A DNA stretch of 59,795 nt, counting the filler, from Jimgerdemannia flammicorona (lineage: Eukaryota), in the NCBI GenBank assembly GCA_003990765.1. It is 3 parts of 3 records of this genome, joined end to end, with 100 filler letters (N's around TTAATTAATTAA, not from the genome) between each part and the next. Parts side by side here need not be neighbours in the genome. Positions count along the whole stretch, not along the records: positions 1 to 19,865 come from RBNJ01001822.1; 2 more parts are not named here. The stretch is one strand, 5' to 3'. Shown here one piece after another: positions 1 to 26,274 of this stretch. How positions within the stretch are numbered: position 1 is the first letter of the stretch; every line of letters starts with the position of its first letter. Made by a program: the position numbers and the translations under genes. The notes below the pieces were generated by a model. It did not search any database. It was not told where the DNA came from and worked only from the letters and a program-made list of their open reading frames with translations.

Positions 1-479
1 AAAAAAAAAAAAAAAAAAAAAAAAAAAGACAACAGGAGATAAACAGCTGCGAACACCATTTCCAAGCAATGGGATATTGTAACCATGGAAGACACCCTGA
101 CTGCCAAGACTGCAGACACCAGAAGATCCACCTCAGTCATGATGTTGCAGTGCACACCTTGAAGAAGGGAGATAACCAAAGCCAGATTCAAAAAAGTCAG
201 ATTTGAAAAAGCCAGACCAAGAAGCCTGAAAAAAGAATCCTCAAGATTTATAATTTGGGAGAAGACATCCTAGCTCTCATCAGACATGCAACCCACCAAG
301 GATAGGCAGAAGATGCCACCAACTTCATGGAAGCCCTTGACCCTATAGGAAAGAGGGGAATCAATTACCTCCAAGACCCCTCTACTAGAGCCAGATGGCC
401 ACACCTCAACCTTAGAGCTTGGAGACTTTCTGCTAGTGGAGCCTCAGCCTTAGGAAAGCCTGAACTCAGCAAGGACATT

Positions 480-886
480 GCTCAGTATGCCCTGCTGCAC
501 CCAAAGGCCAAGCCCCCAACCAAAGCCCACCCAGAGGATATAGGATATGATCTTCACAGCCTGGAAGATGAATCTATCAAGCCTGAAAAAACCTTCATGA
601 TCAGAACTGGATTAGCCATGCAGTCACCTCAAGAAGCTTATATCCAACTGACCTCAAGGTCTGGACTTGCCAGACAGGGGATAACTATAGAAGGAGGAAC
701 CATTGATCCTAGATATATAGACGAAATCAAGGTCATCCTACACAACAGCAGTGCAGAATGGTACTGAATCATTAGAGGACAGAAGATTGCCCAAGCAGTC
801 TTCATAAAGGTCAAGACCCCACAGTTACAGGAAGTTTCTGAATTAACCGAAGGAACAAGACAAGCCAAGGGATTTGGAAGTTCAGA
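480..886 (+). pseudogene. Retroelement-encoded trimeric dUTPase domain with a premature TGA at 765-767
   Basis: All five motifs in one frame when read through the stop: IGYDL, SRSGLA, GTIDPRY, KIAQ, RQAKGFGSSD. Confidence 0.92.
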
Positions 887-1309
887 CAGGAAAGAGGTAT
901 ATCTTCTTCAAGTCAACCACCTCAAGAGGAATGTTCCCCAGCAAGTATACTGGCAACCAGTCAGACTGCACAAGAATCTCATCCTAGAGCCTGGAGAACA
1001 AACTACCTTCGAAATATTTGCACCACCCGACCCCAGGAACCTTTTCTTTGAACCCAAGGAAGACATCCCACACCTGGACATAGAAGGACATACATTCCCT
1101 GACAAAATGAACCCAGTACACTCCCGAGCAACCAACCAAAGTTGGGAGACCATCATCTTGCCGAAAGGAACTATCATAGGACATCTGGTGCCTTTTCTCA
1201 ACCGAACTCATAGGGAAGTTTATGAACTAAATCTATCAGGAAACGGCAAAAGGTCCCAGAAGAAAGGAAAGGCCCCTCTGCGACCCAGGAGACAGTGAAG
1301 CCTTCCACC

Positions 1310-2710
1310 AACATTGGAGAAGAATTGATACCTCAACAATAACAACAACTAGTAGAACTTCTCAATGAATATCAAGATATCTTCACCACCGATTATGGCA
1401 ACCTGCTATACAACCCATCATATCACTACAGTATAAATACGGGAAGTGCAATACCCATCCGGCAGAAACCCTATAGAATACCCCATCACTTGAAAACATT
1501 CGAAAAGGAGCATATCCAAGAACTCTTAGACAATGGAGTCATCCGACCCTCTATCAGCCCCTGGGCCAGTCCTATACTTATTGTACCAAAGAAAGGAGGA
1601 TGGAGACTTTGTGTGGATTACAGAAAACTCAATTCAGTCACTGAAAAAGATGCTTATCCTTTGCTCAGAATCGATGACCTTTTGGACCAGTTACAAGATG
1701 CCAGATACTTCAGCAGTATGGACCTCTTTGCAGGATTCCATGAGATCTCCATGGACCCCAAGGACATTCAAAAGACAGCCTTTCTTGTTCTAGAAAAACT
1801 GTTTAAATATCTCCGAATGCCCTTTGGACTTTGCAATGCACCCCCCACCTTCCAGAGAATGATGAATTCAGTCTATATCCCCTTAATCCACCACTGTCTG
1901 ATTGTATACATAGATGATTCCAACATCTATTCAGTAAATTTCGAAGAACACTTGCACCACCTAGAGGAATTTTTCAAGCTCACCTGCAAGAACCACTTGA
2001 GACTGAATGCAAAGAAATGCTACTTTGGAAAACAGAAACTCGAATTTCTTGGATTCGTGGTCTCAAAAGAAGGAACTCATGCAGACCCAAAGAAAACTGA
2101 GAAGATCAATAATTGGCCAGTACCTAAGACTCTGAAGGAAACACTATCATTCTTGATGCTAGTATCCTACTACAGAAGGTTCATCAAGGATTTTGCCCAA
2201 ATTGCTGCCCCAATCCGAATCCTTCTCAAGAAAGGAATGATATTCAAATGGACAGAATCACAAGAAAAAGCCTTCAGAGAACTCAAAAACCACATGACTA
2301 CAGCACCAATCCTTATGTGCCCCAATCTACAGAAGCCATTCATCTTATATACAGATGCTTCCAAAGATGGTCTGGGAGCAGTTCTAGCCCAAGAAGGACC
2401 CAACCAACAGCACTATGTGATAGCTTATGCAAGCAGAGCTACCAATCAGCAGCAGACGAACTATGGTAGCACCAAACTGGAATGCCTTGCAGTCATATGG
2501 GCAGTCACCCTGTTTAAGCACTACCTCATCAGAAAAAGATTCACCCTGATCACAGACCATGTAGCCCTCAAATGGCTATTCAACTGCAAGGAATCTACTG
2601 GAATCCTAGCCCACTGGATCCTTATCCTTCAGGATTACAAAATCACCATCATTCACAAAGCAGGGAAAGCTTACAACAATGTTGATGTACTTTCCCGCCA
2701 GCCTCAATGA
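1310..2710 (+). pseudogene. Ty3/Gypsy reverse transcriptase and RNase H
   Basis: PIRQKPYR, SPWASP, LCVDYRKLN, MPFGLCNAP, YIDD, YTDAS, LECLAVIWA, TDHVAL, DVLSR. Frameshifted relative to the dUTPase frame near 1300. Confidence 0.95.
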
Positions 2711-3774
2711 ACCAGAAGAAGGGTGTCCTGAGGAACTACACCCTAAAGGAAGCTCCTCAGACTATCAAAGCACAAGAAGATCTCATCTGAAAAGAATATC
2801 AGAAAGCCCACTAAGGACAGACAAGCATAGAAGAAAGAATTCGAAAACAATATCAACATTGGCCCCACCTCAGAACTCAAGTCTGGGACATCATACAGAA
2901 ATGTGATATCTGCCAGGAGTACCAAGGAAAGAAGAACTATCAAGCCTCTCTGCAACCGATTCTCCCACCCACTCACATCTTTCAAAGATGGGGAGTAGAT
3001 GTAATTGGACCTCTATCAGTTACACTAAGAAAAAACAAATATATTCTTGTATTTGTAGAACACCTGACCAAGTGGCCCGAGGCTTTCCCAATGGAAATCG
3101 CAGATGCCTTAACCATTGTAGGCCTCCTCCATAGACTCACACTCAGATATGGACCTCCTGAGGAACTCATTTCTGACCGAGGCACAGAATTCATCAATAA
3201 CATAATCACAAGTTATGCCTGAATTCACAAGATCCACCTCAAAAGGACCACATCATACCACCCCCAGACCAATGGCATGACAGAAAGAATGAATCAGACC
3301 ATCAAGAAAGGACTTGCCCAAGTCAATCCTATTAATTGGGACCTCTGCTTACCTGAAATCCTATGGGAAATTCGAAATACCCCTGCCATATCCACCAAAC
3401 AAAAGCCATTTGAAATGATGTTTGCCAAGAAAACCAGAACTGCTGATCATGAGAATCTCGGAGACCTCCTCAAGAAGGCAGAACAGTTATGAAATCAAGC
3501 CCAAGGACAGATTATCAAAGCCCAGGAAAGACAAAAGAAGTATTATAACCAAAAACAGAAGGATCAGGAGATTAAGATTGGAGATCAAGTCCTAGTTTGG
3601 AGAAGCATGATTGAGACAAACTTTGCTGCCAAACTGAAACCGAAATGGGAAGGACCTTATCTTGTACACAATATCAGAGGAACCAGCATCTATTTAAGAA
3701 ACATGGATGGATGAACCCTGAGAACACCAGTACACATCAATCACCTCAAACTATATTTCCCCTCTACACTATGA
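2707..3774 (+). pseudogene. Ty3/Gypsy integrase (HHCC, DDE, GPY/F) in its own ATG-initiated frame
   Basis: Manual translation from ATG 2707: (Y)QKAH..CDIC, WGVDVIGP, ISDRGTEF, YHPQTNGMTER, KWEGPY. Several C>T-type stops. Confidence 0.9.
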
Positions 3775-4286
3775 GCCAAAGGATTGATCAGCGCCTCCAG
3801 ACATTGGTCCTCAGCTCCTTCCAAGCCCTACCTGTCCCTCTACCTCAATTCGGCCAAGCCAATGGAAGCCTCCTTCAAAGGATCCAAGTTCATCAAGAAA
3901 ATCTCACCTTGGCCAGATGCCTACTACAAGTTCACCAACTGTAGGCCTATTATGCAATTGGTGAACAATTGCAGAACCTCCCAGCCCCAGAACAGACCTA
4001 CATCAGAAACACTACAGGTCTGACCAGAAGAGATACTACTGCTGCAGACAGACTATACACTATTTACAAATGAAATATCACAGCCCTGACATAGGCACAA
4101 TTCTCCCTGAATGACATCTAAGGAATGAACTCTGTTACCTACCTGAGCATTATCAACTCTGTTGAAATCCTCTTCCCTGAAGAAGAAGAAGAGTTCCTAG
4201 AATGGAGTAATCCTAGTATAGACAATGAAGATGATGGAACAGGTATAGATGCAGAAGCAGCCTATGCTTATTGGGATGATGACTGA
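3771..4286 (+). pseudogene. Additional ~171-aa ORF of unknown function between integrase and PPT
   Basis: ATG overlaps the integrase stop (ATGA). Reads MSQRIDQRLQTLV...YYAIGEQL...AADRLYTIYK...acidic tail, with four internal stops all revertible to Gln/Arg. Confidence 0.6.
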
Positions 4287-4325
4287 AGAATAGTCTGAGA
4301 CAGACTACCCTTCAGTGGGGGCTGA

Positions 4326-5692
4326 TGTGACAAACCAAAAATGTCCCACCCAAATTATATCTTAACCAGATGATGCAAACAAGATGACATGAACACATAA
4401 CTTAGTAACCAGCAACCATTGCTGTGGAAAACTGTATAAATAGCCAGAGATACCAGAAGGGATCTGTTTACCTGTACAGACTCTGTATACCATACAGACT
4501 CTGTATACTGTACAGGTCCCGTACACCGTACAGACTCTGTACATCTGCCATAAGTAACAGATCTATAGTTAGCCACATAGTAACCAGATAGCAACCAACT
4601 TGTATAAATTACCCCAGAGACAAGAGTGAATAAAACCTCAGTCCGAATTGAAGTGCAAACCAAAGAAGCCTCTAAAGATTGAGCAATTGGTCCCCTTATT
4701 CCCACTCTGGTCCACTTTCTGATACAAAGCCTGAAGATTTGCCGCCTAAGTTCAAGGAGAACTTCGCCGCCTTTTGAAGAGAAACCCGCTGCTTAAGAAA
4801 TAAGCTGCGCTACATTTTTGGTTCACTTGTCAGATAAGCCTGAAGATTCCACCTTTCTGCTACCTAAGAGAAAGCCACCTTGCTTAAGCTAGTTTCTGAT
4901 GCAACTTCACAGTGATTCATCACACAAACAAAGCCAGTCTTTGACGTAACTTTGTCAAGAGACCCTTTCCCAAAGAACGCCGCCAGTTTTATCCGCCATA
5001 TTCCCAGTTGAAGCCACTGATTTAGAAGAATCTGCACCATTGTATTCCCAGTTAAAGCCGCCGATTCAGGAAGAATCCGCGTCATCTGCTGTTTTCGAGT
5101 TATCCACCACATTCCCAGAAGAACCCTGCCGATTTAGAAAGAATCCATACCATTCGAGTTAATTCCCAGTTAAGCCACCATTTTCAAGAAGCTCACCAAA
5201 CCTGCATCATCTGCCATTTTCGAGTTATCTGCATTCCCAGAAGAGCCATCTGAGTTGTTCGTCATTTCCAGTGAGCCCGGTATAGAAGAATCCATGCCAT
5301 ACAATTCCCAGAGAGCCGAATCGAGTCATCCGCCAGAAACCGCATACTTTTGGGGATCGTTGCACTACATAAGATCATTATGCAGAGATCGCCCGCTACC
5401 CAAGAAAGAGAACCGCTAAATTGCCAGACCGTCACGTACAAGGAGATCATCACACTACACAGAAATTATGTCATTCCCAGTTGACCCAAGAAGGAAAAGA
5501 CATACAAATTGCCGCTACACTCAGAGAACTGTCCCAATAAGGAAACCACTCACACAGTATCCAGATCTTGACTATTATACTGCTAAACACCAAGAATATT
5601 TTATTGCTTTTAAACAAAATAACTGGGGGCTCAAGCCAAACTACATCAACTCCCAACCTTGTAATTTGCCTCCATTGAGCTGGCACGTTATA
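4326..5692 (+). repeat. 3' LTR (~1.37 kb) with internal tandem repeats
   Basis: Starts TGTGACA after the PPT; probable end CGTTATA (mutated GTTACA) at the switch to AT-rich DNA. Contains ACAGACTCTGTA repeats (4477-4545) and TTCCCAGTTAAGCC..GAAGAATC repeats (5000-5300). Confidence 0.7.
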
Positions 5693-5949
5693 ATACTTAT
5701 ATAAAATTTATAATTATACAGATTGTATAGATGTATAGATCTCATAATTATAAGAGATAATTTATAAGAAAAAAAGTCTTAACTTAGTTATCATATAGTT
5801 TGTAAACTTATATAAATATCTCTAGTATTAAGAGTAAATAAATTTTAGATCAAAATAGTTCAAAATAAAGAGACAAGAGAATTAGTAAGTCTGCAAACAG
5901 ATATACTTCAAACTTACCCACCCCTGTACCTTGAAAACTCTGAGAAGTT

Positions 5950-7100
5950 AAAGAAGATTAGGTATTTAAAAGAAATCTACTATATTTTTAAGATTACATA
6001 TTTACTACATTATAACTTAGTACTTATTGACTAATAATTCAAGATAAATTTCTTAATTTTAAGCTAAATAATAAACAACTACTATTATTCAAACATCTAC
6101 TCAAATCAAATTAAGATATTTAGATAAGATAAATATGAGACTATTAGTATTTAATAAATATATCTCTAATAAGTTAATTATTATCTTTTTTAATAATTTT
6201 GAGCAATATATCACTATAAGAACTCTATCACTAGTATAACAAATAGCTCTTATATTATTCAGCCTCTAAGGTCTTATAAAAGCTATATTTATAGCTATAA
6301 ACTATACTAAAAATGATAATAGTTCTATATTGATAATATAGAAAGCCTGGTTGCAAACAATTTACTATATAAATAAAATCAAGCAAACTCTGAAGAATCA
6401 ACTTAATATAATCTGCTAAAGATAAATAAAGACTCAAATATCTTTTATATCTGAATCTACTATCAGATAATTCTAGTAAATTATTCTAAGATCATTAGAG
6501 ATCAAGTAGCTAAAGTAATCTTCATAAAAGAAATTTATTCAGAGATAGCTATAGTAATTTGATTATTACTAATAGTTCTGAATTTATTATAGAAGATAAC
6601 TTATATTTAGTAATATTAGATAGCTAGATATCTATAAGATTATAATAGAGAGAGTTACTAAAGTTAGAGTTGAAGTACTTGAGATAATTAGTATAATTCC
6701 TATAACTATAGTTAATTAAAATATACCTCAGTTAGTAGTAGAAAAATAAAGCCCTATAGAGAAACTTACTAAGAAGTTTGCTAAAATAACTATATACTTA
6801 AGAGATATAGTAAAGGAAATTAGAGAAAGAGATTATTATCTAGTTCAGAAGTTTACTACTATTATAGATAAAAAGAGAGAAACCTACTATACTTATAGAA
6901 AAGAAGGCTACTATTTTTATAAATATATGAGCAAGATCAAGTATATATAAGGTCCAGTTAAGCAATACTACTAGAAATTATAAATAAATCAATATTATTA
7001 TCTTTAAAGAAATTAGAGATTTAGAGAAAGAGCAAGAATGAAAAGTATATTTTACTCTAATATCTAAGAAGGATATCTATAAGAAGTTCTATAAAAGACT
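5950..7100 (+). mobile_element. Hypermutated gag-like relic
   Basis: Fossil CX2CX4HX4C knuckle at 6885-6926 in which every Cys/His codon now reads TAC/TAT. Very AT-rich, with almost no CpG. Confidence 0.55.
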
Positions 7101-7359
7101 ACTGAAAAGATGCTCACATTTATTTCAGCTACTACTTGAATTATATAACAAATTCTTAACTTATTTTTTTTTTCAGTTTTCTAAAGAAATGCAATAGTAA
7201 TATATTGTCAACTTTATACTCAAAGGAGTATACTGAGTAAGGTAGCCTTAGCATATTTGACTAGTAGTATGTATATAGGAAGAAATTATAATATAGTGAA
7301 CTTCTCTTTACTATAATTCACATTATAAAAACTTTTGATAATACTTTCAACATAGTTTT

Positions 7360-10300
7360 TGGAGTAAAGAAAATAATAACATAACAATTAATGAGAAATT
7401 AGAGGAGTATGTCTAGATAGGGCAGTCTCAGTGTATTTGACTAGTAGTATATGTATAGGAAGGAGTTATGGCTTAGGAGAGAGTCTATTAGACTTACTGG
7501 CTAGAGGATATAGAAGAGAAAAAAGTAATGCTGGGAGACAGAAGACTGGAAGAGTGAGCTTTACTGACAATGTCAAGGCTGAGTGCTCATCAATAGGTCT
7601 AGAGATCTGACTACAGAGTGATAAGGAGAAGAAGAGGGTTGTAGAGTCTGGTAGAGAGATTCCTGAGAGTAGTAGTGGTAGGGCTGGGGAAGTTGTAGCT
7701 GGAGAGAGTAAAACTGCTAATAGAAGGAAGACTGCTAATCTGGAAAAAAATCCAAATGTGACAGCTAATGATAGAGCTGGACAGAAGCAGGGCATGAGGC
7801 CTGAGGACCTGACTGATAGTATAATGGACCTGGTAGCAGCACTGTTACTTAAGAAATCAGTATCTGAATTTACTGCTATATTGTACTTCTAGGGTCTAGC
7901 AATCATAGCAAGGATAGTTCTGAGGCTACTGGCTTAGAAGTGAAAGAGACTGTCTTGGTGAAGTTCTTAAAGGGTCTGAAGAGGGTTGAGGTGAGATTCA
8001 AGAAAGAAGAGTTGATGTTGAGAATATTAGAGAAAGATGTGATAGTAGGAGAGGTGATGATTTCTATGGCTTAATATTTATACTAGGACCTTAGGGTAGT
8101 ATAGCTGGTGGTGGTAAATGTATCAATAGTAAAGAAGGAGGAGGCCAGGGGGCTGATTGTCAATGTCATCAAAAAGTATAGAGATGTAGTAGATATAGAC
8201 TTCCAGGTCTAGGAGGGTATAGAGTTCAGAACAGGAGATATAGATATCAGAGTGAGGCTAGCAGGCAAAGAGAATACTAGAAAGAGAAGGGATTGACCAG
8301 CAGTACTCAAGTGGAGACCAGTAGAGTACAAGGTCTTGAGAGTTAAGAGGATGCCAGAGGAGAAAGAGGACTTACTGAAGATATTAGAGGACTTGGCCAG
8401 AGCTGTTGAGAAGAGAAGATTAGCCTAGAAGGAGTATGAGGCCAAGATAGTGATAGAGATAGTGAATGGCAAGTAAGTGAGATTGGATAGAACTACCTAA
8501 GAGAGGGTACAGAAAAGGTAGTGTCAGAGGATTTATTAGTAAAGTTGGAAGAGTAGCTAGAGGAGAGAAAAGCTGCTAATAGAGTTGGATCAAGGGCCAG
8601 TACTTGGACAGAGAAGGAAGAAATGATGGCAAAGGTGATCTTGACAGAAAGGAGTGACCCAGTATATAGTGTGGTGATTGAGGATAAGGTAATAGTAGAG
8701 GTGACTCATGTTCAGTATGATGTACCAGTAGAGGGTGGGGGAAATAATAAGCTATAGGATGTGCTAGAGAAGGACTGGGATGAGTTAGTGAGGGTAGATG
8801 CTGATGGTGGTCAAGGGGCTAGAGAGCAGAAGGTGTGCCAAGGAGTGAATGAGATAATAGAAGAGAAAAGATAGTTGTGGAAGATATTGATAAATGTTGC
8901 AGCTAATGAGTTAGATGAGGTAAACTTCAGAGTGATTAGTGAGAGGTACTGGGGAGAGATTCTGTAAGGGGAAGAGATAGTATAGAAGATTTGAGATGAG
9001 CTGATGGTAGGTCTGCTAGAGGTAGAGAAGTATGAAGTAGATGGAGATAGAAAGGCAGAGTTGATGAAAATTGCAAATGACTGTGCTATCTATCTGTAGA
9101 GCCCTAGAAAGGAGTTGGCAAAGTAGTAGATAGTGTTTGAGAAGTACTAGTCTAATATGGAGGCTGTGGTAAGAACTATCAGGAGATCTTAGTAGCTTTA
9201 GATATCCAGCAGAGAGAGACTGAGGAGCTTGAAGTAGAGGGGAACTTGAATATTGCTAGGAATATAGTAAGCATAGAACTATAGGTGACCTTCTCTATAA
9301 TATTTATTCAATATAAATAGTACAACTAGAATTTTATCTTTGAATATCAATGGATTATAGGGTGTGGTGAGATATTGGAATATTTTCTACTGGTTAAAGG
9401 GGCTAGATATAGATCTGTTTCTGTTATAGGATATTAAATATGATGTAGACTTAGATGGGCTGGACTAGATGAGGGAATAGGGTAGAGCAGCTGTTTGGCA
9501 GAGCTAAGTAGGTATTTTGATTAAGAAGAGCAAAGGTGATATTGGGGATATTGGACATTAGGGGGATAGAGTGATGTAGAGAGTATGGTAGAGACCAAGC
9601 TAGAGCTCCTTGACTGTTGAGTCTTATTATTACCCAGCAGAAAGAGGAGAGTGAATGGAGTGGATAAGAGAACTTTAAGATGCAGAAGTACTGATAGAGA
9701 TCAGGATTGACTGTTTGGATAGAGACTTTAATATGATTTGAGCTAGGCTGTTGAATAGAACTAATAGAGAGAAAAAGATGATAGACAGGAGTAGGAGTAT
9801 TGAAGGTTGAGAGGAGATTGAGAGATTGAGCTTATTGGTGGATACAGGGTGACTTGGATAGAGAGATCACAGAATCTATACTTACTGAATAGCAGGGTTG
9901 GGCTTGAGGATTGATTGGATCCTAATTGCAGAGTATTGGAGTGAGGATGTCTAGAGTCCTCTAGAAATAATTTGATATCTATAGTCTGACCATTGGAGTC
10001 TACTTGATTGTGGGAGGTTTAGGAGAAATAAGAAAGAGTCTGGATATTAGTATCTGAATGCCTTATTGCTAAGAAAGCTCTTTTTGTAGAATTTATAGAT
10101 GATGGACATGAGTTCCAGGATTCTTGGTTAGAGGATAAGAGGGCTAGAGATCAGAGATCAGTAGAGACATTTGAAATCAGATACTCAGAGGTTCTAGGGG
10201 GAGACAGGAAAGGTGAGGGGTAATGAGAGAAGAAAGTGACTAAGGTGGGCCTCTTAGAGATTGGAGAAGTTGCTGATGACCTAGGCCAATTTATAGAATA

Positions 10301-11740
10301 ATGAAGAGGAAGAGAATTAGAGGATCCAGTGGGTCTGGCTTAAGGTAGAGGAGCTGAAGGGGATACTGAGACAGGAGGAGAACTTACAGATGAAGAGTAT
10401 GGCAGCCTGATTGAGATGGTAGAGTATAGAGAAGGGGGAGTAGCCCATGAAGTTCTATTGAGGCTTCTTTAAGTGAGGAGAGTGAGGTAAAGGTGGGAGA
10501 AGATATTGAATAAGGCAGGAGAGATAGTAGTTGGAACTCTAGAGATCTTAGATCAGTTGAACTTAAGGTAGAGATATTTATAGAATAAGGAGAAAGACAG
10601 AAAAGAGGTACTAGGCATTGAACAACATCTGGAGGACTGGTATTTAGACCTAGCAGAGAGCCTAGGGGATCTTGGGGCTCTGGTACAGGGGGGAGAGATT
10701 TATAGAGTTTTGGTAACAATAAGTCTTGAGACAGCTCCTGGAGAGGATAAGCTATCTTGAAATTTCTGGAAGAAGATGGTAGAGGTGGAATTGGCTTTAG
10801 AGGAAATAGTGGAAATGTGTGATGAGGTTATCTGATCTGGAGAGTAGATTGGAGAACAGAGACTAGGACTGATAGCTCTGTTGTTTAAGAATAAGAGGAG
10901 ATAGGAGAAGTAGAAAAATTGGAGACTAATTATGCTTTTGGATATAGATTGTAAGCTAGTGATGAAGATACTGGTGGCTAGACTATAAGGAATAGTATAG
11001 CAGATACTGGAGGCTGAATAGAGGGGGGATATTTGATAAGAGATGGAACAGCTTAGATATCTAGAGTTATTAAAAGTACATGGACTGCAGAGATCAATGG
11101 ACAGCTAGTTTTTCTGGACCAGGAGAAGGTATATGACAGAGTCTAAAGAGTTTGGCTGATAGGGGTGTTGAAGTGGATGAGAGTTCCACCAGAGTTTAAA
11201 AGATTGTTGATCAGACTATTGGAGGGAAGTCAGGCAGTGATATTAGTAAATAGGTATAGGGGGGTTTCATTTTCTCTAAGTAGAGGAGTGCTGCAAGGAG
11301 ATCCACTGTCACTGATACTCTATGTTCTCTCTCTGGAGCCTCTGCTGGATAGAATTAGGTATAAGGTGGGAGAGTTAAACATTCTTATAGTAAATTGGAA
11401 GGTGAGAGCCTTTGCTGATGATATGATAGTTGGGCTAGACTCTGTAGAAGACATGGTAGTACTGAAGAGGGCTATAGAATGGTATGAGGGATACTCCAGG
11501 ACTAAGCTGAACTGATACAAATATGAGACCCTAGTGTTAGAAAGAGAAATAGTAAGGAGAGATATAATTGGATCAGTGGTTCCTATAGAAAAGACAGTCT
11601 GTTATCTGAGAATCTACTTCTCAGTATATGGGTCTTTGCTATCTCAAGAATAGTGAGAGCAGTGGTTAATAGAATGAGGAAATACTCTTCTGGAGTGAGG
11701 TGGCCAATATATCTCTCTAGTTGGGAGAGTGATGGTACTA
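7360..11740 (+). mobile_element. L1/Tx1-like LINE copy 1 (ORF1, APE endonuclease from ~9310, RT); degenerate
   Basis: RILSLNINGL, (G)DFNM and SDHW APE motifs; FLDQEKVYD, GVLQGDPLS and FADD RT motifs; ORF1 homologous to the copies at 12470, 49800 and 59000. Confidence 0.88.
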
Positions 11741-11744
11741 GAGA

Positions 11745-12390
11745 AGAGAGAGGAGTAGAAAAACTGGAGGCCAATTATACTTCTGAATATAGATTGCAAA
11801 CTGGTTACAAAGATACTGGTAGTTAGGCTGTAAGGAGTAGCTCAGCAGATTCTGAGAGTAGAGCAGAGAGGATTTGTAAAGAAATATCTGATTAGAGATG
11901 AGATAGTCTGGATATATAATATTATTGAGGGAGCTTATATTACTAAGATAGATGGATGGCTGGTTTTCTTAGACTAGGAGAAGACCTATGACAGAGTCTA
12001 GTATATATGATTAGAAGAGGTGTTAAAGCATATTAGAGTCCCCTCTGAGGTCTAACAGGTCTTAGTCAGTCTGCTGAAAGAGAGTTGAGTAGCAATTATA
12101 GTGAATGAGTATAGGGGGGTTTTGTTCCCTCTGGGTAGAGAAGTGCTGCAGAGGGATCTACTGTTACTAATCCTATATGTATTATGTCTGAAGTCTCTTT
12201 TGGATAAGATATGGTAAAAGGTGGAAAGATTGGATATTCTGGAAGTTAATTAGAAAGTGGGAGCCTTTTGCTAATAATATAGTAGTCAGACTGAGGTTAG
12301 CTGAGGATGTTGTGGTACTGAAAGATACAGTAGAGTAGTATGAGGAGTGCTTAGATACTAAGCTCAACTGATATAAGTGTGAGATTTTGG
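11745..12390 (+). mobile_element. Second LINE RT fragment of the same family
   Basis: Repeats the NWRPI...FLDxEKxYD...QxDxL...FAxx block of 10900-11530. Confidence 0.8.
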
Positions 12391-12429
12391 CATCTCTCTG
12401 ATACCATTTGGATTATATAACCTTTGGAA

Positions 12430-15400
12430 AGCACTTACAACATCATTCTTAGAGAAAAGAGACTAGCAATATGGTGACTGACAGATAATCTGAGGTGTAT
12501 ACTGAGCAGGGTGGCCCAAGCACATTCAACTGGCAGCATGTGGGAAGGGACTCTGGCCTGGGGGGAAACATGAGAGGTCTGTTGATAGGAGGATATAGAA
12601 GGGGAGGAAGTAGTGGTGAAGAACAGGAGGCAGAAAGAGTAAGCTTTATAGAGATGATGAAGGAGAGAAAGCAGGTGTCTGGGCTGGAGAGCTGGCTGAG
12701 GAAAGGCAAGAAGATGAAAAAGGTAGTAGTACAGAGGGGAGTAGTTCTTGGTAGTGGGGGCAATAGTACTGGGGGTGTAGTGGCTGGGGGGAATGTAATA
12801 GCTGATAGTAATAGGACTGCCAATCTGAAAAAAAATTCAGATGTGACTGCTGATAGCAGGGCTGAGAAGATGGGGCTTAGACAGCAGAGAGATTTAGCAG
12901 ATAGTGTGATGGACTTGGCAGTGGCTCTGTTACTCAAGAAGTCAATCTCAGAGTTTGTGATTACTTTGTACTTCTAGGGCCTAGTGGTGATGACAAAAAT
13001 AGTGCTGGGACTAATTGCTAAGCAGGTGACTAGGGCAGTATTGATGAAGTTTCTGAAGAGTTTGGAGGAAGTAGAGGTGGGCTTTGAAGAGATTGGACCT
13101 CTGGAGGAGGTACTGATGGTAGGACTGACTGTTGGGGAGATATGTGTTCTGATAGCCCATTGTCTGAGATAGGACCCCAGGGTGGTACAACTGCTAGTAA
13201 AAGGAGTGCTCACAGTTAGTGCTCCCAATGAATCAAATCAAATCGAATTTGGCTCAAACTCAATTCAATTTGATTGAATCAAGGGTCCAATTTGATTTGA
13301 AGTTCGATTTGAACCTTAATTTTCAAAATATAATAACTCAACAAAACCTCATCCAAATTTAACATATTTTAGCTTGTTAGATTTACCGTATTAATGTGAT
13401 TCTAACAAGCTAAAGTATGTTAGATTTGGATGAGTTTACGCTGAGTTATTGCATTTTGAAAATTAGGATTCGAATCAGACCCTCAATTCAATTTGACTTT
13501 TGATTTGATTCAAATTGATTCAAATTGAAAAATCCCTAATTCAATTCGACTCATTTAACCCTCAATTCGATTCGATTCGAATTGATTTGACTCATTTGAG
13601 AGCACTACTCATAGTAATAATGATAGAGATAAGGAGGAGAGTTGAAGAGGTTATGGCTAAGTATAGAAAGGTGGTAGATGTTGGATTCTGTGTCTGAGAA
13701 GAGACCTCATTCTAGACTGGGGATATTGATATCAGAATTTGGTTGACAGAGAAGGAAGCTACTGGGAAGGCAAGGAACTGACCTTCAGTAATAGTCTGGA
13801 GAGCAATCTTATACAAGGTAACAAGGGTAAAGGGGAGTGAGGAGGAGGAAGAGGACTTATTAGAAATGCTGAAAGAGCTGAGTAGTACAGTAGAGTGATG
13901 GGTGAAGGTTTGAAAGGTCTTTGTAAAGTTGATACATTTGAAGGTAGTGGATGGAAAGTAGATTTGAGTAGACAAAGGGCAGTGAGAGAGGGCTCAGAGA
14001 TACAAGAGGCAGAAAGAGCTGCTGGCTAAACTGGAGAGTAGGCCACAGAAGGATATGGGTGGAATTGAGGAAGTAGGGGGTACCAAAGTGAGTGTCTGGA
14101 CCAGTGAGGATAGAGGTATTAGGGGGAAGGGGACAGGAGAGGACAGAGAGGTGACTGGCAATAACTCATATATGGATGGTATATTTGAGGTCTGGGAGGA
14201 GGACTGGAAGGCCTCACCTACTCCTACCCCTCTTATCAAGTGAGATCCAGCTTCTTGAAGTAGAGTGGCAGAGGATGTACCCATACAGGGGGCCTAGCAA
14301 GTACAATTTGGAGTACTGGAGGTGGCAAAAGGGGGACAGGTGGTGGTGGTTGGAGAGGAGGAACTAGTGGATGTCTCAGAGGTATGGGATGAGTTTGCAA
14401 GTATAGGGGCTGACACCACAATGCTGAATGGAGAGAGGCCAGCAACTCTAGAGAGGAAGGAGGTGGAGAATCTACTTTGGATATACAGGATGATGAATAA
14501 CTTGATAGCTAAAGAGTTGGGGGAGGTAGATCTTAGAGTAATGAGTGATGAGTATTGGGCATGGATTCTACAAGGAGATAGTGTGGTAGTGATATTAAAG
14601 GTGGAAATCCTTGTGGTGTATCTGGAGAAGAAAGGGTATGAGGTGGATAAGGAGAGAGAGACAGAGCTGACAGGTATTGCTGGTGAGAGGGCCAACTACT
14701 GCTGGACTAAGCATCATGGATTACAGCTCTGACAGAAGGTCTGCCTGGAGTACCAGGAAGAGTTTGAGGAGAAGGTAAATGGAGAGATGAATAAGCTATT
14801 GACTGGATTGGAGGCTAAGAGGGCTGAAGAAGAGGAGGAGTCTGTGGAATACAATCTGGACTTGATACAGGAAGCAAGGAGTATGGAGCAGTAGAGGATG
14901 GACTTGATAATATATAGTATTTTTTTATAAATAGTATAACCAATATTTTTTCTTTAAATGTAAATAGGTTACAGGGCTCTTCTTGACATAGAAGCATTTT
15001 TCTTGACTGAAGAGATTGGAGGCTGATCTCTTTCTTCTACAGGATGTCAGGTGTGAGGATGAGTTGGATAGGCTGAAATAGACAAAGGAATGGAGAGGTG
15101 AGATAGTTTGAAAGAGCAAGGTTGGGATTCTGGTCTAGAGAGGCAGAGGGGAGATATACAATATGAGGAGCTGGAGAGATAGATTGGTCTGAGGAAAGTG
15201 GATATATATAGGTTGGGAGCTGGTTACAGTGAGTTCTTGCTACTGCTCTGCTATACAGAGTGAGTATGTAGATTAGGTGAAGTATCTCTAGGAGAGTGAA
15301 GCTCTTGCAGAGACCAGGGTGGATATGCTTGGTGGAGACTTCAATATGGTTCAGGATGTGCTGATGGATAGAATCAATGGAGAATGGGGAGCTGAGGACA

Positions 15401-15954
15401 AGAGTGGAGGGCTAGTGGTATAGGAGGATGTGAAAAGATTAAGCACTCTGGTGGATACTGGTAGGGAGTTTTGAGGTAATAAGAGAGTATACATACATTG
15501 GACAGGGGGCCTGAGGACAAGAATTGATTGGATTTTGATGGTGAGCTGTTGGGGATCAGATGTTTAGAGGTTACTAGAGGTGGAGTGGTGTCCATGATTA
15601 GATTATTAGGGGCTGCTAGAACAGATATATTTTGGGAAGAGTGGGGGTGGACCTGGACATTGACATCTCAATTCCTCTTTATTAGATGATAGGATACTGT
15701 GGGATAAGTGGGCTGAGGACATTCAATAGGGGGTAATGGGCTGGAGACAGAAAGATGCTCCAGTTGATGTTCAGTAGATAAGGATGGCCAGGGTCTACTG
15801 GAGTGAGACTGGTAAGGAGACTGGGAAACAGAGGAGGTGAAGAGTGAGATGGGCTTCTGCTAGACTGGCTAGACTATTGGAAGATTGGGCAAGGCTGGTG
15901 ACTCTGGAGGGGAGAGAGGATTGGAGATTAATACAGGTGAAAATAGAGGTTGGG
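12430..15954 (+). mobile_element. LINE copy 2 (ORF1 from ~12471, APE from ~14930), interrupted by a MITE and cut by an LTR
   Basis: Colinear with copy 1: NIFSLNVN, LQDV, GGDFNM, RIDWI. Confidence 0.85.
13217..13607. mobile_element. hAT-type MITE, near-complete fold-back
   Basis: TIRs TAGTGCTCCCAATGAATCAAATC...GATTTGACTCATTTGAGAGCACTA; 8-bp TSD CTCACAGT/CTCATAGT; central inverted arms TTTAGCTTGTTAG...CTAACAAGCTAAA. Confidence 0.92.
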
Positions 15955-16394
15955 TGTAATAGTTCTAGTTTCTTTAAGAGAAAGCAGCTAAATCTGGAAG
16001 TTCTAGTTAGTCTAAAGTAGCTTGAAGAGATACTTAAAGGTTCAAGTATTCTTGAAGAATTTCTGGGAGAAAATATTCTGAGCTTTATTTAGGCAGAGAA
16101 TAAGGATATTTATACAAGATCTGAAAGAAAGATCTGGAAGGATCTTGAAAAGAAAGAGAAATACCAAGAAATAGGTTCTCAGCAAAGCTGACTAATACTA
16201 TTCTATAATGTTCCAAAAGAACTTAGTGCCAAGGAAAGACAAGAATGTTCTAGTGGTGTCTAGATGCTGAGAGAAGGTTTCTAAGCAAGTAGAAGGTGGT
16301 GAAACATAGTAGAATGTTCAAAAAATGATAAGAAAAGACTAACTAAAAGATGTGAAAATATACTAAGGCTAAATATGACTGTAAAATTGTTACA
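15955..16394 (-). repeat. 3' LTR (~440 bp) of the minus-strand chromovirus
   Basis: TGTAATA...TGTTACA termini; the adjacent TTTCTCTCTCCTT (16395-16407) is a PPT on the minus strand. Confidence 0.8.
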
Positions 16395-16530
16395 TTTCTC
16401 TCTCCTTAAGAACCAATATCCTCATTGAGTTCTTAGGTAATACAAGACTAGATATACTTAACCAAAATTTCTCAAACTTGTATCAGTACATTGGTAGGGA
16501 TTGGTCATCCTTATATAGAGCAGAGGGCCT

Positions 16531-17701
16531 CCTTTCTCCACTATCTTACTGGTCACAAGGTTTGGTAGGTGACCTTCCAAGTCCCCTTTCCCCTATTATT
16601 ACCCTCTCTACCTTGGGTTGGTTTGCTGTGCCTGCAGAGGCATAGTGGGAGGAGGGCAATGGTGATGAGTTGCCTCTTTATCGGTGTTAGATTGGTGCTT
16701 CCTCTACTTTTTCGCAGATTCTGGTGCCTTCAGCTGCATCTGGGGTATACCCATTTTGGTGCAGCACCTTCTTCCTTTTGCCATCACCAATAAGGTGTTA
16801 TCTTGATATATCTTGGGCTACATAGGAAGTTGGCCAATCTTGGGCATTAAGTGCTCAGTGTAGATTACCTGCAGGTTCTTGGTGCCTATGGTGGGGCTCT
16901 CTGGCTTTGGCGAGCTTCCTGGCGAGTACAGTTCTGGCATAGGTGACTGCTTTTCAGGTGTTGTCAGAATGAGAGGGGAGATGGCCATTACAGATAGGAG
17001 GAAGGGTGATTACAGTGAACCAGTAGGGTGCCAGGCTGGGGGCAGTCATCAGGGCTGGGGCAGGTGCTACTTCGGTGGGGCCTTTTGATTGGTGTAGTGT
17101 GGTTAGGTGGTAGGTGTCACTAATGGCTTCTTTTGGTGGTCAGCAGGGTTGGGCCCCAGTCATCAGGGGGCATCGGGAGGCCCAAGGCTACCCATTTCAG
17201 GCATCTTGGCTGCACTTAACTGGAACCAGGAGCTGATATAGCAATGTGATCGAGGCCTGCAGACTTGAGTAGTGGAGTATTGGCACCTTATGTGTAAGTC
17301 CTTTACTTATCTCAATTGAGAGAACTAGGTCCTGCCCACCATGTTGTGCTTTGATGAGAGTTTTTTCTTTACCTGTTATTCTCTTTGGAGTGGCAGGGAC
17401 TATTCTATTTAGCTCGGGCATGGTCTTGTACATACGTTGGGTTCCCAGGCATGCGCTTTCAGTCATTGGTATATGGTTGGGTTCCCCCAGTGGTAGGGAG
17501 AGCATAGTGCACAGAATGAGATATGGGCCTTTTCGGCCCTGCTGCACCTGGCATGGTTGAGCTGCTGGACAATAGCTAGCCTAGGTTAATGGGGTGGCAG
17601 TGCTTAGTGGGTGGTGGGGGAGAGTTTTGGCCTATATAGTCTAGGTTCTCTTCTAATAAAAATCTGTGGGACATGAGTCTATTAAAAAAAAAAAAAAAAA
17701 A
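16531..17701 (+). mobile_element. PolyA-tailed retroposed insertion (5'-truncated LINE of another family, or a retrocopy)
   Basis: 16-bp TSD ATAGAGCAGAGGGCCT at 16515-16530 and 17702-17717; AATAAA near 17655; A-tail 17684-17701. Confidence 0.85.
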
Positions 17702-17899
17702 ATAGAGCAGAGGGCCTATTATCAGACTAACCAACTGAGAGGGGTTTGAACCCAGTTAGTAGCTTCATTTTGGTGGGCTTCTTGTTCATTAAATGTTCTA
17801 TTGATGCTGGAGTCCTAAAGTAAACTTCCAATGCATAAGGTACTGATCTTTACCATAGGTTGTCAATAATCCAAGAAAGTCACTATAGAGATTAGGCAA

Positions 17900-19831
17900 T
17901 ATGTTTTACCTTGAAGTCTTAAACTAGATCTTGAGAGTTCTTGAGGTTGACCAGTAGTTTCCAAATAGCATCATATTTAGGGTAACCCATCCACTTGACT
18001 AGGTATTCAGAATAGTGATAGTGGATTTATTTGTCAAGAATTTTCTCAGCTTCATACTCAATATAGTCTTCAATAATCACAGAGGCAGAAGGCTTAGAAA
18101 TTTAACCAGAGTAGGGTGGTAACTAGTTTCAGATCTTGAGGTGTGATATATGAAAGACTGAGTATACTCTCATAGTTTCAGGTAGCTTGAGATAATAGGA
18201 GGATGCAGAGACTTATTCAGTAATCTCAAAAGGTCCAATATACTTGGGTTGGAACTTGTTTAAAGAATAGTTGACTTGAGATTGTATCTTAAGGTTCTCA
18301 GTAGACAGTAGGACTTAATCTCCAACAGTATAAGTAACATTATGGTATTTCTAGTCAGCATACTTAGCTTGATGCTGTTGAGCCTTCTGAAGATTTACAG
18401 TAGCAATCTTGAGTAGTTCATCTATTTGGTCTGTAAGGTTCTTGATAGTTGAGACTTGTATTTGACTGGTTTTCTTGAAAGAGAATAGACTTGCAGGAGT
18501 CTTGGGATCTTGACTATAGAGTAACTAGAAAGAGAAAAGACTAGTAGATGATTGGACAGTATTGTTATATGCAAACTCCACATAAGTCAGATAGTGATCC
18601 CAATCATCTTACTTGTAGAAAATATAGTTTCTGAGCATTTGTTCAAGAGTTCTGTTTATGTGCTCAGTTTGTCCATCAGTTTGTAGGTAAAAGGCAGTAG
18701 ACATAGCCAATTGGGTTCCCAGAGTCTTAAAGAGGGTTTACCAGAAGTGACTAGTGAACTTGGGGTCACAATTACTAACAATTACTTGTGGTAGGCCATA
18801 GTGATGGAAGATGAACTTGAAGAAGATTCTTGCAATCTCAAGTGCAGTAGTATTGGTAGTAGTTGGTTCAGTAACCATAGTCTTAGTTAGGTGGTCAATG
18901 AATACAACAATAGCATCAGCACTAGATTGAGTTCATGGTAGTTGAGTTATAAAGTCTATAATAACTTGCTCGAATTTCTTGGTAGAAATTGGCAGTGATT
19001 ATAGCAAACCAGCTGGTACTTGGTTAGTAGACTTGTTGTGCTGATATAGATTATAGCTAGCAACATAGTTCTTGATTTTCTTAACCATGTTTGGCCAATA
19101 GTAGTAGTATTAAATATTCTTGACAGTTTTCTCAATTCCCAGATAACTAGTAAGAGGAAAGTCATAGTGTTCTTGTAAAACCTTATAGTGTAGGTTTATG
19201 TTTTCAGATAGGTAGACTTGATCTTAATGATAGATCAGGTTGTTCTCAATAGTATATATATCCTTGAGCTTATTTAAGAAAACTCTAGTAGTGACTGTGT
19301 CTTCTTTGTAAGCTTATCTGATTTGGTCTAGGAATTCTGATACCAAGGTGACCTGTATGATTGTGGCAAGGTCTGGGTATCTTGATAAGGTATCTGGTAC
19401 TACAGGTATCTTGCCAGGCTTGTAGATGATCATTGAGTTGAAGGTTTGAAGCTTGAGACTCCACTTAGCTTGTAGATATAACAGAGTAGATTGAGTATTG
19501 ATATACTTGAGGAATTGATGATCAGTAATGATATCAAACTCAACACCTTCTAGATAGCATTACTGGTGGTCTAGTACATATATTATTGCCAGTAGTTCCT
19601 TCTCATAAGTAGCTAGCTTTGTTCAGCTGGAGTTAGCTTGCAGAACTTGAAAACAATAAGGTGATGTTCTTTGCCATCATCTTGTAACAAGACTGCTCTA
19701 ATGGCAAAATTCAATATATCAGTAGTAACTATGAATTTTAGGCCTTGATCTGCATTACACAGGACTGGAGTATAGGTCAGGTAATTCTTGAGTTCTTGAA
19801 AGGCTTGTTGACAGAAGAGGTCCCAGGTGTC

Positions 19832-19833
<2 letters not shown>
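17900..19833 (-). mobile_element. Chromovirus (Ty3/Gypsy) pol 3' half: RNase H, integrase, GPF, chromodomain; degenerate
   Basis: Minus strand reads STAFYLQTDGQTE, KFQPKYIGPFEI and chromodomain EYEAEKILD...EYLVKWMGYP..DAIW (~17910-18065). Confidence 0.9.
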
Positions 19834-19865
<32 letters not shown>

Positions 19866-19965: not shown

Positions 19966-19978
19966 AAAAAAAAAGTAC

Positions 19979-20546
19979 CAGGGAAATTGAACTCGGGCAT
20001 CTTCCTCCCGCTCCTCAGATCGTGCTCATCCTCGTTCGCCTCCCGCAACGCCGCGCAGTATTTGTTATGTTCAGCCTTGCCGCTGAGATAATGCCCCTCG
20101 GAGCAGTGTGTCGGGTATCCGCAGTCCGAACACTCGTACGTCGGAGCTTTGCACTCGTGCGCGTGTTTCGCCTTCGCGTGTTTCGCCTTCGCGTCGGTCT
20201 TGTTGGCGTCGTCGCCAGCGCACGCCTCCTCGTAGCACACGGGACACGAGCCGTACTTGTTGATCAGGGTGGCGCGGTCGCGCATCTGGCGGATCGGGGA
20301 TTTGGAAAGCGGGTGGAAGAGGTGGTCGGGCGAGAGCACGGGGGGTCTGTCGGGCGTTGAAACATCGGCGCTGGGGTGCGAGAAGAGGGACTTGAGGGAG
20401 AAGGAGCGGGCGAAGGTCAAGGTCGGGTTCCTCGGGGAGACGAGGCGAACGGAGGGCAAGACAAGAAGCAACGAGGAGTTGCAAGGTTGGTGTGGCGGAG
20501 GGACATGAAGGGCGGACAGGATAGAGCGGGCTCTTGAGGAGAACAT
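19979..20546 (-). CDS. MSS51: Mss51, mitochondrial COX1 translation/assembly factor; exon 1 only, gene continues past the contig edge
   Basis: Arg/Ser-rich presequence MFSSRARS; LFHPLSKSP..MRDRA, CPVC, ECSDCGYPTHCS, NEDEHDLRSGR..PEFNFPG; GT donor at 19978. Confidence 0.88.
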
Positions 20547-20716
20547 GTTTTGGAGGGAGAATACTGCTACTGCTACTGCTACTGCTACTGCTACTGCTAC
20601 GGTGAACATAGATCAAATTTCCCAATTCGACATATCACGTGATCCGTGTTTGTTTACATTTGGCGTCCCCCGTTTGCTTTTTGGTCTTTTGCATCTTCTT
20701 TCCTACTCTGACCACC
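20547..20716. promoter_or_regulatory. 170-bp divergent MSS51/CWC22 promoter with the palindrome ATCACGTGAT (E-box)
   Basis: Head-to-head ATGs at 20546 (-) and 20717 (+), with CACGTG near the centre. Function is inferred. Confidence 0.55.
20562..20600. repeat. (TACTGC)6 microsatellite just upstream of the MSS51 start
   Basis: Directly visible. It produces the spurious VAVAVA N-terminus in the ORF track. Confidence 0.95.
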
Positions 20717-23522: not shown

Positions 23523-23635
23523 GGAAGAGGAGTGCTTAGGGAGAAGGGGTGCTTAGGGAGAGGGGTGCTTACGGAGGAGGGGTGCTTACGGAGGAGGGGT
23601 GCTTAAGGAGGAGGGATGCTTAGGGAGGAGGAGGG
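23516..23635 (+). repeat. ~17-bp G-rich minisatellite, about 7 copies (TGCTTAGGGAGRAGGGG), starting in the CWC22 stop codon
   Basis: Directly visible. Confidence 0.9.
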
Positions 23636-23898
23636 GCGAGCGAGCAGGAGTGTGGTGAAAGCGAGGGCCATCGATGGGCAATGGGGTGTACACGCCGCAT
23701 CCTAAACGAACATGATTTTGCTTATTGTATTGCGAACGTACACGCACGCAACCTCCCCTCTTTTGGAATCACGGTATAAATATAATTCTTGTTTTTGCCC
23801 CAATTGGGAAGAGGCGCGCGTTATCTCACATTTTAAAACGTAATAGATCAACACACCTCTCAAACCTCTCAAACCCTTCTCGCGGTAATATCTCTCAG

Positions 23899-23975
23899 AA
23901 CTCAGCATCGGGACTACCTCCAATCACATGTTCCTGTTCGGTGACTTCAACTACCGCATATCCCGACTCGGCGTC
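23899..23975 (+). pseudogene. Possible inositol polyphosphate 5-phosphatase fragment
   Basis: SNHMFLFGDFNYRIS matches the (F/W)xGDxNYR motif. No other exons found nearby. Confidence 0.4.
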
Positions 23976-24185
23976 CCTATCACATTTCGTTTCCATCATG
24001 GTGCCACTTTATTGTATTTAGAAGAAACACAAGTGGATCTTGAGGTCGCATTTAAAATGAAGCCAGCACGAATCCAGCGTTTATTTACGTTCCCTATGTA
24101 TTGCACAGGACACATTTACGCTTAGATTCGACATGAACGGCCGTATTCCAGCTTAAAATTTAACCCGCTTCTCCGTCCGCGATAC

Positions 24186-26032: not shown

Positions 26033-26274
26033 GGCAAAGTGTTAACTCTAAGCCACCATTCGAAAATTAGATTGCCCAGCGCAGCATTTGTTCATTTTTA
26101 CATTGTTTACTGTCTTCAGCAACATATCATTGCTCAGTACTCATTTACTTTTATTTTTGATTCTTATTCTTAAGGGATATTAATATTTTTTTGTCATGTA
26201 ATTACAATAAGCTCTTTTGACTCATCTGGGTTCAGTTTGGTTCTTTTCCACCCTCTTTTTTTTTTTTTTCCTAT

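What the first reader, a model, noticed from the sequence alone, without database searches (positions are those of the whole stretch)
2701..3780. Two ATGA stop/start overlaps split pol into coupled cistrons (RT-RH / INT / ORF3)
Seen: RNase H ends DVLSRQPQ-TGA (2708-2710), overlapped by the ATG at 2707 that opens the integrase frame. The integrase ends at TGA 3772-3774, overlapped by the ATG at 3771 of another ORF. Known: Ty3/Gypsy integrase is normally released from a single polyprotein, and ATGA coupling is the geometry of viral and prokaryotic termination-reinitiation. Inference: two such junctions at domain boundaries argue for a polycistronic retrotransposon design rather than random frameshifts. 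This is the best candidate here for an undescribed system.
Basis: partly seen in the sequence, partly recalled or inferred. Interest (0 to 1): 0.75.

Follow-up and report, generated by a model that had tools for sequence, protein, structure and literature searches.

The report
Retrotransposon with separately translated integrase cistron
This Ty3/Gypsy-type retrotransposon family, and a wide group of its relatives, encodes integrase and a small unknown protein as separate genes placed on or just after the previous stop codon rather than inside one Pol polyprotein, likely so that ribosomes stop and restart on one RNA, an arrangement our literature searches did not find described for LTR retrotransposons.

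Summary
Confirmed. ATGA overlaps sit at 2707-2710 (RNase H stop/integrase start) and 3771-3774 (integrase stop/ORF3 start). They are family-wide: 28 of 29 other copies keep each, with no indel from 2707 to 4286. Of 100 listed matches across junction 1, 99 keep the spacing. The window copy itself is decayed.

The split is ancient. In 23 divergent elements integrase has its own start at offsets -8 to +368 from the RNase H stop, in all three frames, which excludes a single frameshift or readthrough. ATGA is only one geometry (2 of 23), but short spacers are AUG-poor (1 in 848 nt, 7.5 expected). ORF3 is a real, lineage-wide helical protein family (444 clusters, no Pfam or fold match).

Likely mechanism: termination-reinitiation on the genomic RNA (about 0.55). 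The main rival is separate subgenomic RNAs (about 0.25). There is no expression data. The scan noted the junction-1 split before on other DNA of this genome; junction 2, the ORF3 family and a candidate -1 frameshift site placed after dUTPase are added here.

The parts
28..1298 (+). 3' part of ORF1 (Gag-zinc knuckle-protease-dUTPase, about 1330 codons from the Gag Met in a full-length copy); only the dUTPase region and C-terminus lie in the window; internal stops at 204, 303, 765 are copy-level decay, TGA 1296 is family-wide
   Evidence: Pfam dUTPase E 3e-16 and 4e-5; Gag, CCHC and DTGA protease motif read in copy L071; stop tallies 6, 3, 8 and 28 of 29
1238..1285 (+). Candidate -1 ribosomal frameshift site from ORF1 into RT: heptamer at 1238-1244 in register, with an 8-of-9-pair stem 1252-1260/1277-1285 (inferred)
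   Evidence: G GGA AAY in 14 of 30 rows (window included; 13 have A GGA AAY, as the window does) and in relative L079; stem arms; folding z of the 70 nt downstream not significant (-0.2, +0.7)
1238..2710 (+). RT-RNase H cistron, frame -1 to ORF1, ends TGA 2708-2710
   Evidence: Pfam RVT_1 E 2e-31, RT_RNaseH E 9e-36; stop in 29 of 29 copies
2660..2698 (+). Predicted hairpin ending 8 nt before junction 1; family-specific
   Evidence: mean z -2.3 to -2.5 in 11 copies, z -3.3 in L079; 2 of 15 positions tested fall below -2; 1 of 23 split elements (L079) below -2
2707..2710 (+). Junction 1: ATGA, RNase H stop overlapping the integrase start
   Evidence: also ATGA in L079 and L080
2707..3774 (+). 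Integrase cistron (355 codons; HHCC zinc finger, rve core, C-terminal domain); 5 internal stops in this copy
   Evidence: Pfam Integrase_H2C2, rve; intact stand-alone homologue P0010, 83% identical, same start
3771..3774 (+). Junction 2: ATGA, integrase stop overlapping the ORF3 start
   Evidence: L079 has ATAA and P0007 implies ATGA at a shifted position
3771..4286 (+). ORF3, 171 codons, all-helical core of about 100 residues plus acidic tail; lineage-wide family of unknown function; 4 internal stops in this copy
   Evidence: homologues 57-80%; codon-position differences 23/6/38 against L079; family alignment and 444 clusters; model pLDDT 83
4314..4325 (+). Polypurine-tract-like sequence before the 3' LTR
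4326..5692 (+). 3' LTR (about 1.37 kb, starts TGT, ends in the family's terminal motif)
   Evidence: LTR pairs about 86-93% identical at about 9 kb spacing in 10 of 18 fetched stretches; ends and the primer-binding site after the 5' LTR in copies

Best explanation
This is a decayed copy of a high-copy Ty3/Gypsy-type LTR retrotransposon whose integrase and ORF3 are separate genes, each with its own start codon on or just after the upstream stop, and they are likely made by termination-reinitiation on the one genomic RNA. Shown: ORF1 (Gag-protease-dUTPase), RT-RNase H, integrase and ORF3 are four reading frames; both ATGA overlaps are family-wide; the split and the ORF3 protein are shared by divergent relatives. 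Inferred: some ribosomes slip -1 at 1238-1244 into RT-RH, terminate at 2708, and a fraction restart at the overlapping AUG to make free integrase, then again to make ORF3. In relatives with spacers the post-termination 40S would scan to the first AUG. Free integrase would then have to reach the particle or the cDNA without being part of Gag-Pol.
For: Family-wide junctions. Stand-alone integrase homologues share one initiator Met column (45 of 47), and 76 of 120 hits are 410-430 aa. 23 split elements use all three frames (12, 6, 5) and offsets -8 to +368. Nine independent tight geometries include ATGA, TAATG and ATGnnTAA. Spacers up to 166 nt hold 1 ATG in 848 nt against 7.5 expected (P about 0.005), while RNase H coding just upstream is ATG-rich (146 in 5520 nt). 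Short integrase-to-ORF3 gaps hold 1 ATG in 365 nt in 5 elements, and ORF3 overlaps the integrase stop in three more lineages (-1 here, -8 in a second family of this genome, -26 in L080). Upstream ATGs lie as close as 5-45 nt before the integrase start, and 8 of 23 have no YAG in the ATG-free stretch, which fits neither a common splice acceptor nor a long separate leader. Fungal ribosomes are known to do AUGA/UAAUG stop-restart, and LINE-1 restarts across a 63-nt spacer (passages of PMC6631646, PMC5972666).
Against: No RNA, ribosome or protein evidence. No cis signal is shared across the lineage: TGGGA is absent in 23 of 23 and only this family has an upstream hairpin. Two integrase spacers contain ATGs (L097: 7 in 365 nt; L142: 3 in 278, one in frame), L141 has one, and two ORF3 genes lie 1.36 and 1.6 kb downstream across 16 and 27 ATGs, which simple restart cannot bridge. 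In this family serial frameshift-then-restart would give very little integrase and less ORF3 (inference). An AUG-poor spacer is also what a short separate transcript leader would show. Monophyly of split elements is neither shown nor rejected (AU p 0.086; 0% of bootstrap trees).
Confidence: 0.55

Rival explanations
1. Integrase and/or ORF3 are translated from their own subgenomic RNAs started at internal promoters; the overlaps are only compact packing.
For: Offsets vary widely; some gaps hold many ATGs (L097, L142; ORF3 in L091, L084); spaced starts have a purine at -3 in 11 of 14; it avoids the low yield of serial restart.
Against: In tight elements an upstream ATG lies 5-82 nt before the integrase start, so the RNA would have to begin within RNase H coding sequence very close to the AUG; 9 of 23 starts cluster within -8..+5 of the stop in three different geometries.
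Confidence: 0.25
2. A spliced RNA (as for foamy-virus pol or errantivirus env, recalled) joins the leader to an acceptor just before the integrase or ORF3 start.
For: The window family has a pyrimidine-rich CAG six bases before junction 1; a Rhizophagus gene model (P0229) joins integrase to the ORF3 domain.
Against: The closest relative L079 has no YAG there; 8 of 23 split elements have no YAG in the ATG-free stretch before the start.
Confidence: 0.08
3. Internal ribosome entry or shunting places ribosomes at the integrase AUG independently of upstream termination.
For: A family-specific hairpin precedes junction 1; spacers are AT-rich and AUG-poor.
Against: No structure is shared across 23 elements; the tight link between stop and start positions is not needed.
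Confidence: 0.06
4. A programmed frameshift or readthrough restores an RT-RH-integrase fusion, and the ATG is incidental.
For: Junction 1 is a -1 frame change, like retroviral frameshifts.
Against: The integrase frame is closed 24 nt upstream in 29 of 29 copies and the sequence shows no in-register X XXY YYZ heptamer in between; relatives use all three frames and spacers with stops; the Met is conserved at one alignment column.
Confidence: 0.04
5. The breaks are lesions of a master copy amplified in trans, or chance.
For: All copies in this genome are decayed, and the first two searches ranked the closest copies.
Against: Uninterrupted RT-RH and integrase frames in L079 and L080 have the same ATGA; two further families in this genome and 19 more metagenomic elements are split; integrase N-terminus and ORF3 show codon-position bias.
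Confidence: 0.02

Closest known systems
Ty3/Gypsy (Metaviridae) LTR retrotransposons, especially fungal elements with dUTPase between protease and RT (PosPlaTy3-5; passages of PMC2864245)
   Same: LTRs, primer-binding site, polypurine tract, order protease-dUTPase-RT-RH-integrase, HHCC integrase, an additional ORF in some
   Different: That paper describes most fungal elements as one Gag-Pol ORF or two ORFs. Here integrase is its own ORF, protease and dUTPase are in ORF1, and the candidate frameshift lies after dUTPase.
Victorivirus HvV190S and hypovirus CHV1 stop/restart (passages of PMC6631646, PMC10275272)
   Same: AUGA or UAAUG overlap between long ORFs in a fungal host, with predicted structure just upstream in this family
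   Different: Those are RNA viruses with one junction and, for HvV190S, an upstream pseudoknot. Here there are two serial junctions, a simple predicted hairpin, and relatives with spacers.
SART1 and LINE-1 ORF2 reinitiation (passages of PMC5972666, PMC10275272)
   Same: Retrotransposon cistrons coupled by an overlap (SART1) or a 63-nt spacer (LINE-1), matching the two geometries seen across this lineage
   Different: Those are non-LTR elements, and the junction separates ORF1 from the enzyme ORF rather than splitting the enzymes.
Cauliflower mosaic virus TAV-driven polycistronic translation (passages of PMC5972666)
   Same: Several closely spaced long ORFs, tolerance of overlaps and of spacers up to hundreds of nt, no shared cis signal, a 3'-terminal accessory ORF
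   Different: Caulimoviruses lack integrase and LTRs (recalled). No similarity between ORF3 and TAV was found, and ORF3 is about 150 aa.

Membership tests
Ty3/Gypsy LTR retrotransposon | Direct LTRs, primer-binding site and polypurine tract | tested here: met
   the match of the primer site to tRNA-Pro is recalled
Ty3/Gypsy LTR retrotransposon | Domain order protease-RT-RNase H-integrase | tested here: met
Ty3/Gypsy LTR retrotransposon | RT phylogeny among named Metaviridae clades | not tested
   trees held only unnamed relatives; no named reference set was available
Canonical Ty3/Gypsy Pol polyprotein | Integrase in one ORF with RT-RNase H | tested here: not met
Victorivirus-type stop/restart | AUGA or UAAUG overlap | tested here: met
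   both junctions; 4 of 23 relatives at junction 1 (ATGA 2, TAATG 2)
Victorivirus-type stop/restart | H-type pseudoknot just upstream | tested here: inconclusive
   a hairpin is predicted at 2660-2698; the folding program does not predict pseudoknots; none adjoining junction 2
Victorivirus-type stop/restart | Downstream expression depends on upstream termination | not testable with these tools
   needs a reporter assay
Calicivirus/influenza B TURBS | UGGGA motif complementary to 18S rRNA upstream of the stop (motif recalled) | tested here: not met
   absent within 90 nt in 23 of 23; GGGA in 2 of 23
TAV-type transactivated reinitiation | Element-encoded transactivator | tested here: inconclusive
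   ORF3 has no Pfam, PDB or BFVD match to TAV or anything else; function untested
Env-bearing gypsy (errantivirus-like) ORF3 | Envelope glycoprotein similarity | tested here: inconclusive
   no env family among the 25 Pfam rows shown (of 28) for 122 members; model is a small helical domain
Ginger / Gmr1-like stand-alone integrase | Integrase outside the RH-integrase-PPT order or without LTRs (recalled) | tested here: not met
   integrase lies between RNase H and the PPT/LTR

The most novel reading that the evidence does not exclude
A widespread lineage of LTR retrotransposons of Mucoromycota-type fungi runs a caulimovirus-like polycistronic RNA: Gag-Pol, free integrase and a conserved small ORF3 protein are translated serially by reinitiation, ORF3 being the element's own trans-acting factor (reinitiation activator or integrase/RNA packaging adaptor) that makes the junctions tolerant of overlap or spacer.
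Probability: 0.15. Interest if true: 0.9.

Novelty: new variant of a known kind. Interest (0 to 1): 0.68.

Why it matters
LTR retroelements normally deliver integrase to the particle as part of Gag-Pol (established knowledge). A successful lineage that makes integrase separately needs another route for expression, dosage and packaging. It supplies dozens of natural junction variants, from overlap to 368-nt spacer, for studying reinitiation after long ORFs in fungi. It also defines a large unannotated protein family (ORF3), and shows that annotators will misread these elements as broken or fuse their genes (P0229).

Tried and rejected
Expression: the sequencing-run search listed no RNA holder, so no reads were laid; this is no evidence either way. 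ORF3 function: no shared Pfam family; ESM Atlas best score 0.87, below the lead threshold; PDB sequence hits to TPR repeats had no passing stretch; Foldseek PDB and BFVD gave nothing at E<=0.001; VIA-align best Z 4.2, with ParB-family HTH cores (SopB, VirB, KorB) at Z 2.8-3.5, a lead only. A recalled resemblance to DUF1016 found no support. A possible third stop/start overlap at 1295-1298 was rejected: it reads GTGA in 28 of 29 other copies, never ATGA. The first RT tree (4 label changes) used a crude extraction and was replaced; the integrase tree is the quick tree only. Rows dropped: of 82 metagenomic/viral loci, 38 had no RNase H upstream, 19 were fused and 25 split; of the 25, L121 and L128 (broken copies grouping with fused types), L113 (no Met at the profile start) and L089 (near-duplicate of L087) were left out, and L164 and L171 from this genome were added, giving 23. 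The ORF3 offsets of L187 and L090 were dropped because their integrase stop was unreliable. Literature: searches found no description of a separately encoded integrase in LTR retrotransposons; Repbase, GyDB, subscription journals and the structure table in the supplement of PMC2864245 (old .doc, not opened) could not be seen and may bear on novelty.

Full report
Observation. RT-RNase H (Pfam RVT_1, RT_RNaseH) ends at TGA 2708-2710. ATG 2707 opens the -1 frame with the integrase zinc finger and core, which ends at TGA 3772-3774. ATG 3771 opens a 171-codon ORF ending at 4286. Two such overlaps in one copy have a chance of about 0.04, so the test is conservation.

The element. The window is three contigs joined by linkers; 1-19865 is G000:C1822. 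The host is a eukaryote (eIF4G-type and TFIIB-type genes on the next contig). I infer a fungus because named homologues come from Rhizophagus, Entrophospora and Gigaspora; the host was not identified. The family is large (2094 first-look candidates). Ten of 18 fetched stretches show paired LTRs about 86-93% identical at about 9 kb spacing. The window holds the 3' half: polypurine tract about 4314-4325 and LTR 4326-5692. A full-length copy reads Gag, zinc knuckle, protease and dUTPase in one ORF1 of about 1330 codons, ending at TGA 1296 in 28 of 29 copies. RT-RH lies in the -1 frame. An in-register G GGA AAY heptamer at 1238-1244 occurs in 14 of 30 rows and in relative L079, followed by an 8-of-9-pair stem, although the fold is no more stable than shuffles. 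A -1 frameshift after dUTPase is therefore inferred. The copies are decaying by C-to-T change, strongest at CpG (20-23% pairwise), then CpA (6-7%); the window's internal stops are copy-level.

Family-wide junctions. Of 29 other copies, 28 have ATGA and 1 ATAA at each junction, all 29 have the stops at 2708, 3772 and 4284, and none has an indel in 2707-4286. A flank-anchored pattern gave 366 places; 99 of the 100 listed keep the spacing, one is 3 nt shorter, and by eye 77 read ATGA, 22 ATAA and 1 ATAT, against 19 of 100 decayed at a neighbouring CpA site.

Lineage-wide split. Integrase homologues in the 195-622 aa search window are mostly 410-430 aa (76 of 120) and lack RNase H. The length filter favours stand-alone forms, but 45 of 47 aligned sequences place Met in one column. 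Of 82 metagenomic and viral loci, 44 had RNase H upstream: 19 fused and 25 split. After dropping four and adding two other families of this genome, 23 split elements have the integrase Met at -8, -5, -5, -5, -1, -1, +2, +2, +5, +27, +30, +33, +42, +65, +66, +77, +78, +92, +95, +113, +166, +281 and +368 from the RNase H stop, in frames -1, 0 and +1 (12, 6, 5). No single frameshift or readthrough can serve three frames. L079 (RT-RH 83% identical) and L080 (44%) have uninterrupted RT-RH and integrase frames and ATGA; L080 has Gag-Pol in one frame, L084 a frame change after Gag. The split label is clustered on trees (2 changes against 15.7 and 9.6 shuffled), but one origin is not shown: 0% of bootstrap trees, AU p 0.086.

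ORF3. It is a real gene: homologues at 57-80% and codon-position differences of 23/6/38 against L079. A related domain follows integrase in other split elements, starting at -8 (second family of this genome), -26, +35, +37, +61, +115, +132, +1361 and +1603 from the integrase stop. In the L079 subfamily both the integrase end and the ORF3 start have shifted, yet the overlap persists (ATAA in L079; ATGA inferred from the P0007 translation). The profile finds 444 clusters at 50% identity, mostly 125-160 aa among the 150 listed. The model is all-helical, pLDDT 83, with no significant family or fold match.

Mechanism. For reinitiation: starts cluster on the stop in several independent geometries; spacers up to 166 nt hold 1 ATG in 848 nt (7.5 expected, P about 0.005) whereas upstream RNase H coding holds 146 in 5520; short integrase-ORF3 gaps hold 1 in 365; 8 of 23 lack a YAG acceptor in the ATG-free stretch. 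This family has a hairpin at 2660-2698 (z -2.3 to -2.5 in 11 copies, -3.3 in L079), in the position of the victorivirus upstream element, but it may partly reflect conserved codons. Against: no TURBS motif (0 of 23) and no shared structure; ATG-containing gaps in L097, L142 and L141 and before two ORF3 genes; low expected yield after a frameshift (inference); no expression data. I put reinitiation at 0.55 and internal transcripts at 0.25; the lineage may use both, especially for ORF3.

Known systems. I read passages, not whole texts, of PMC10275272, PMC5972666, PMC6631646, PMC2864245, PMC6431247 and PMC5006619; other papers were seen only as search listings. They describe AUGA/UAAUG restart in fungal viruses, SART1 and LINE-1 reinitiation, TAV-driven spacer-tolerant reinitiation, and fungal gypsy elements with dUTPase between protease and RT in one or two ORFs. 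Searches returned no account of a separately encoded LTR-retrotransposon integrase; Repbase, GyDB, subscription papers and one unread supplement could hold one. Two earlier notes of this scan report the junction-1 split on other pieces of this genome; none matched ORF3 by sequence.

Verdict. A real, conserved and unusual architecture: a new variant of Ty3/Gypsy-type elements that works like stop/restart systems by inference, not by test. Interest 0.68.

Noticed in passing
window 18132-19825 (-) and 46629-47186 (-): Fragments of other, distant gypsy-type RNase H/integrase genes (25-37% identity).
   Followed up: no
window 28-19850 versus 19966-39830: CpG observed/expected is 0.05-0.16 in the repeat contig outside the LTR region (0.57 in it) but 1.03 in the gene-rich contig; copies differ mainly by C/T and G/A changes, CpG then CpA, suggesting repeat-targeted methylation decay.
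   Followed up: partly
window 2707-2800: This family's integrase has about 31 residues before the zinc finger, against about 60-73 in most stand-alone relatives: the lineage's N-terminal helix is largely lost, yet the ATGA start is kept.
   Followed up: partly
L080 1-8116: Both ends of the contig read the same Gag peptide, suggesting a circular or tandem assembly of an uninterrupted split element with one Gag-Pol ORF of 1577 or more codons.
   Followed up: no
L087 (RNase H end to stop, 945 nt): RT-RH carries a C-terminal extension of about 315 codons before its stop.
   Followed up: no
protein P0229 (Rhizophagus irregularis): A gene model joins an integrase core to the ORF3 domain; either a prediction artefact or a real splice.
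   Followed up: no
window 13254-13528 and 43476-43809: Related palindromic repeats (about 74% alike), MITE-like.
   Followed up: no
window 38391-39302: 153-nt tandem repeat (5 overlapping matches, core copies 97-99% identical) in an open frame next to a TFIIB/BRF-like ORF.
   Followed up: no
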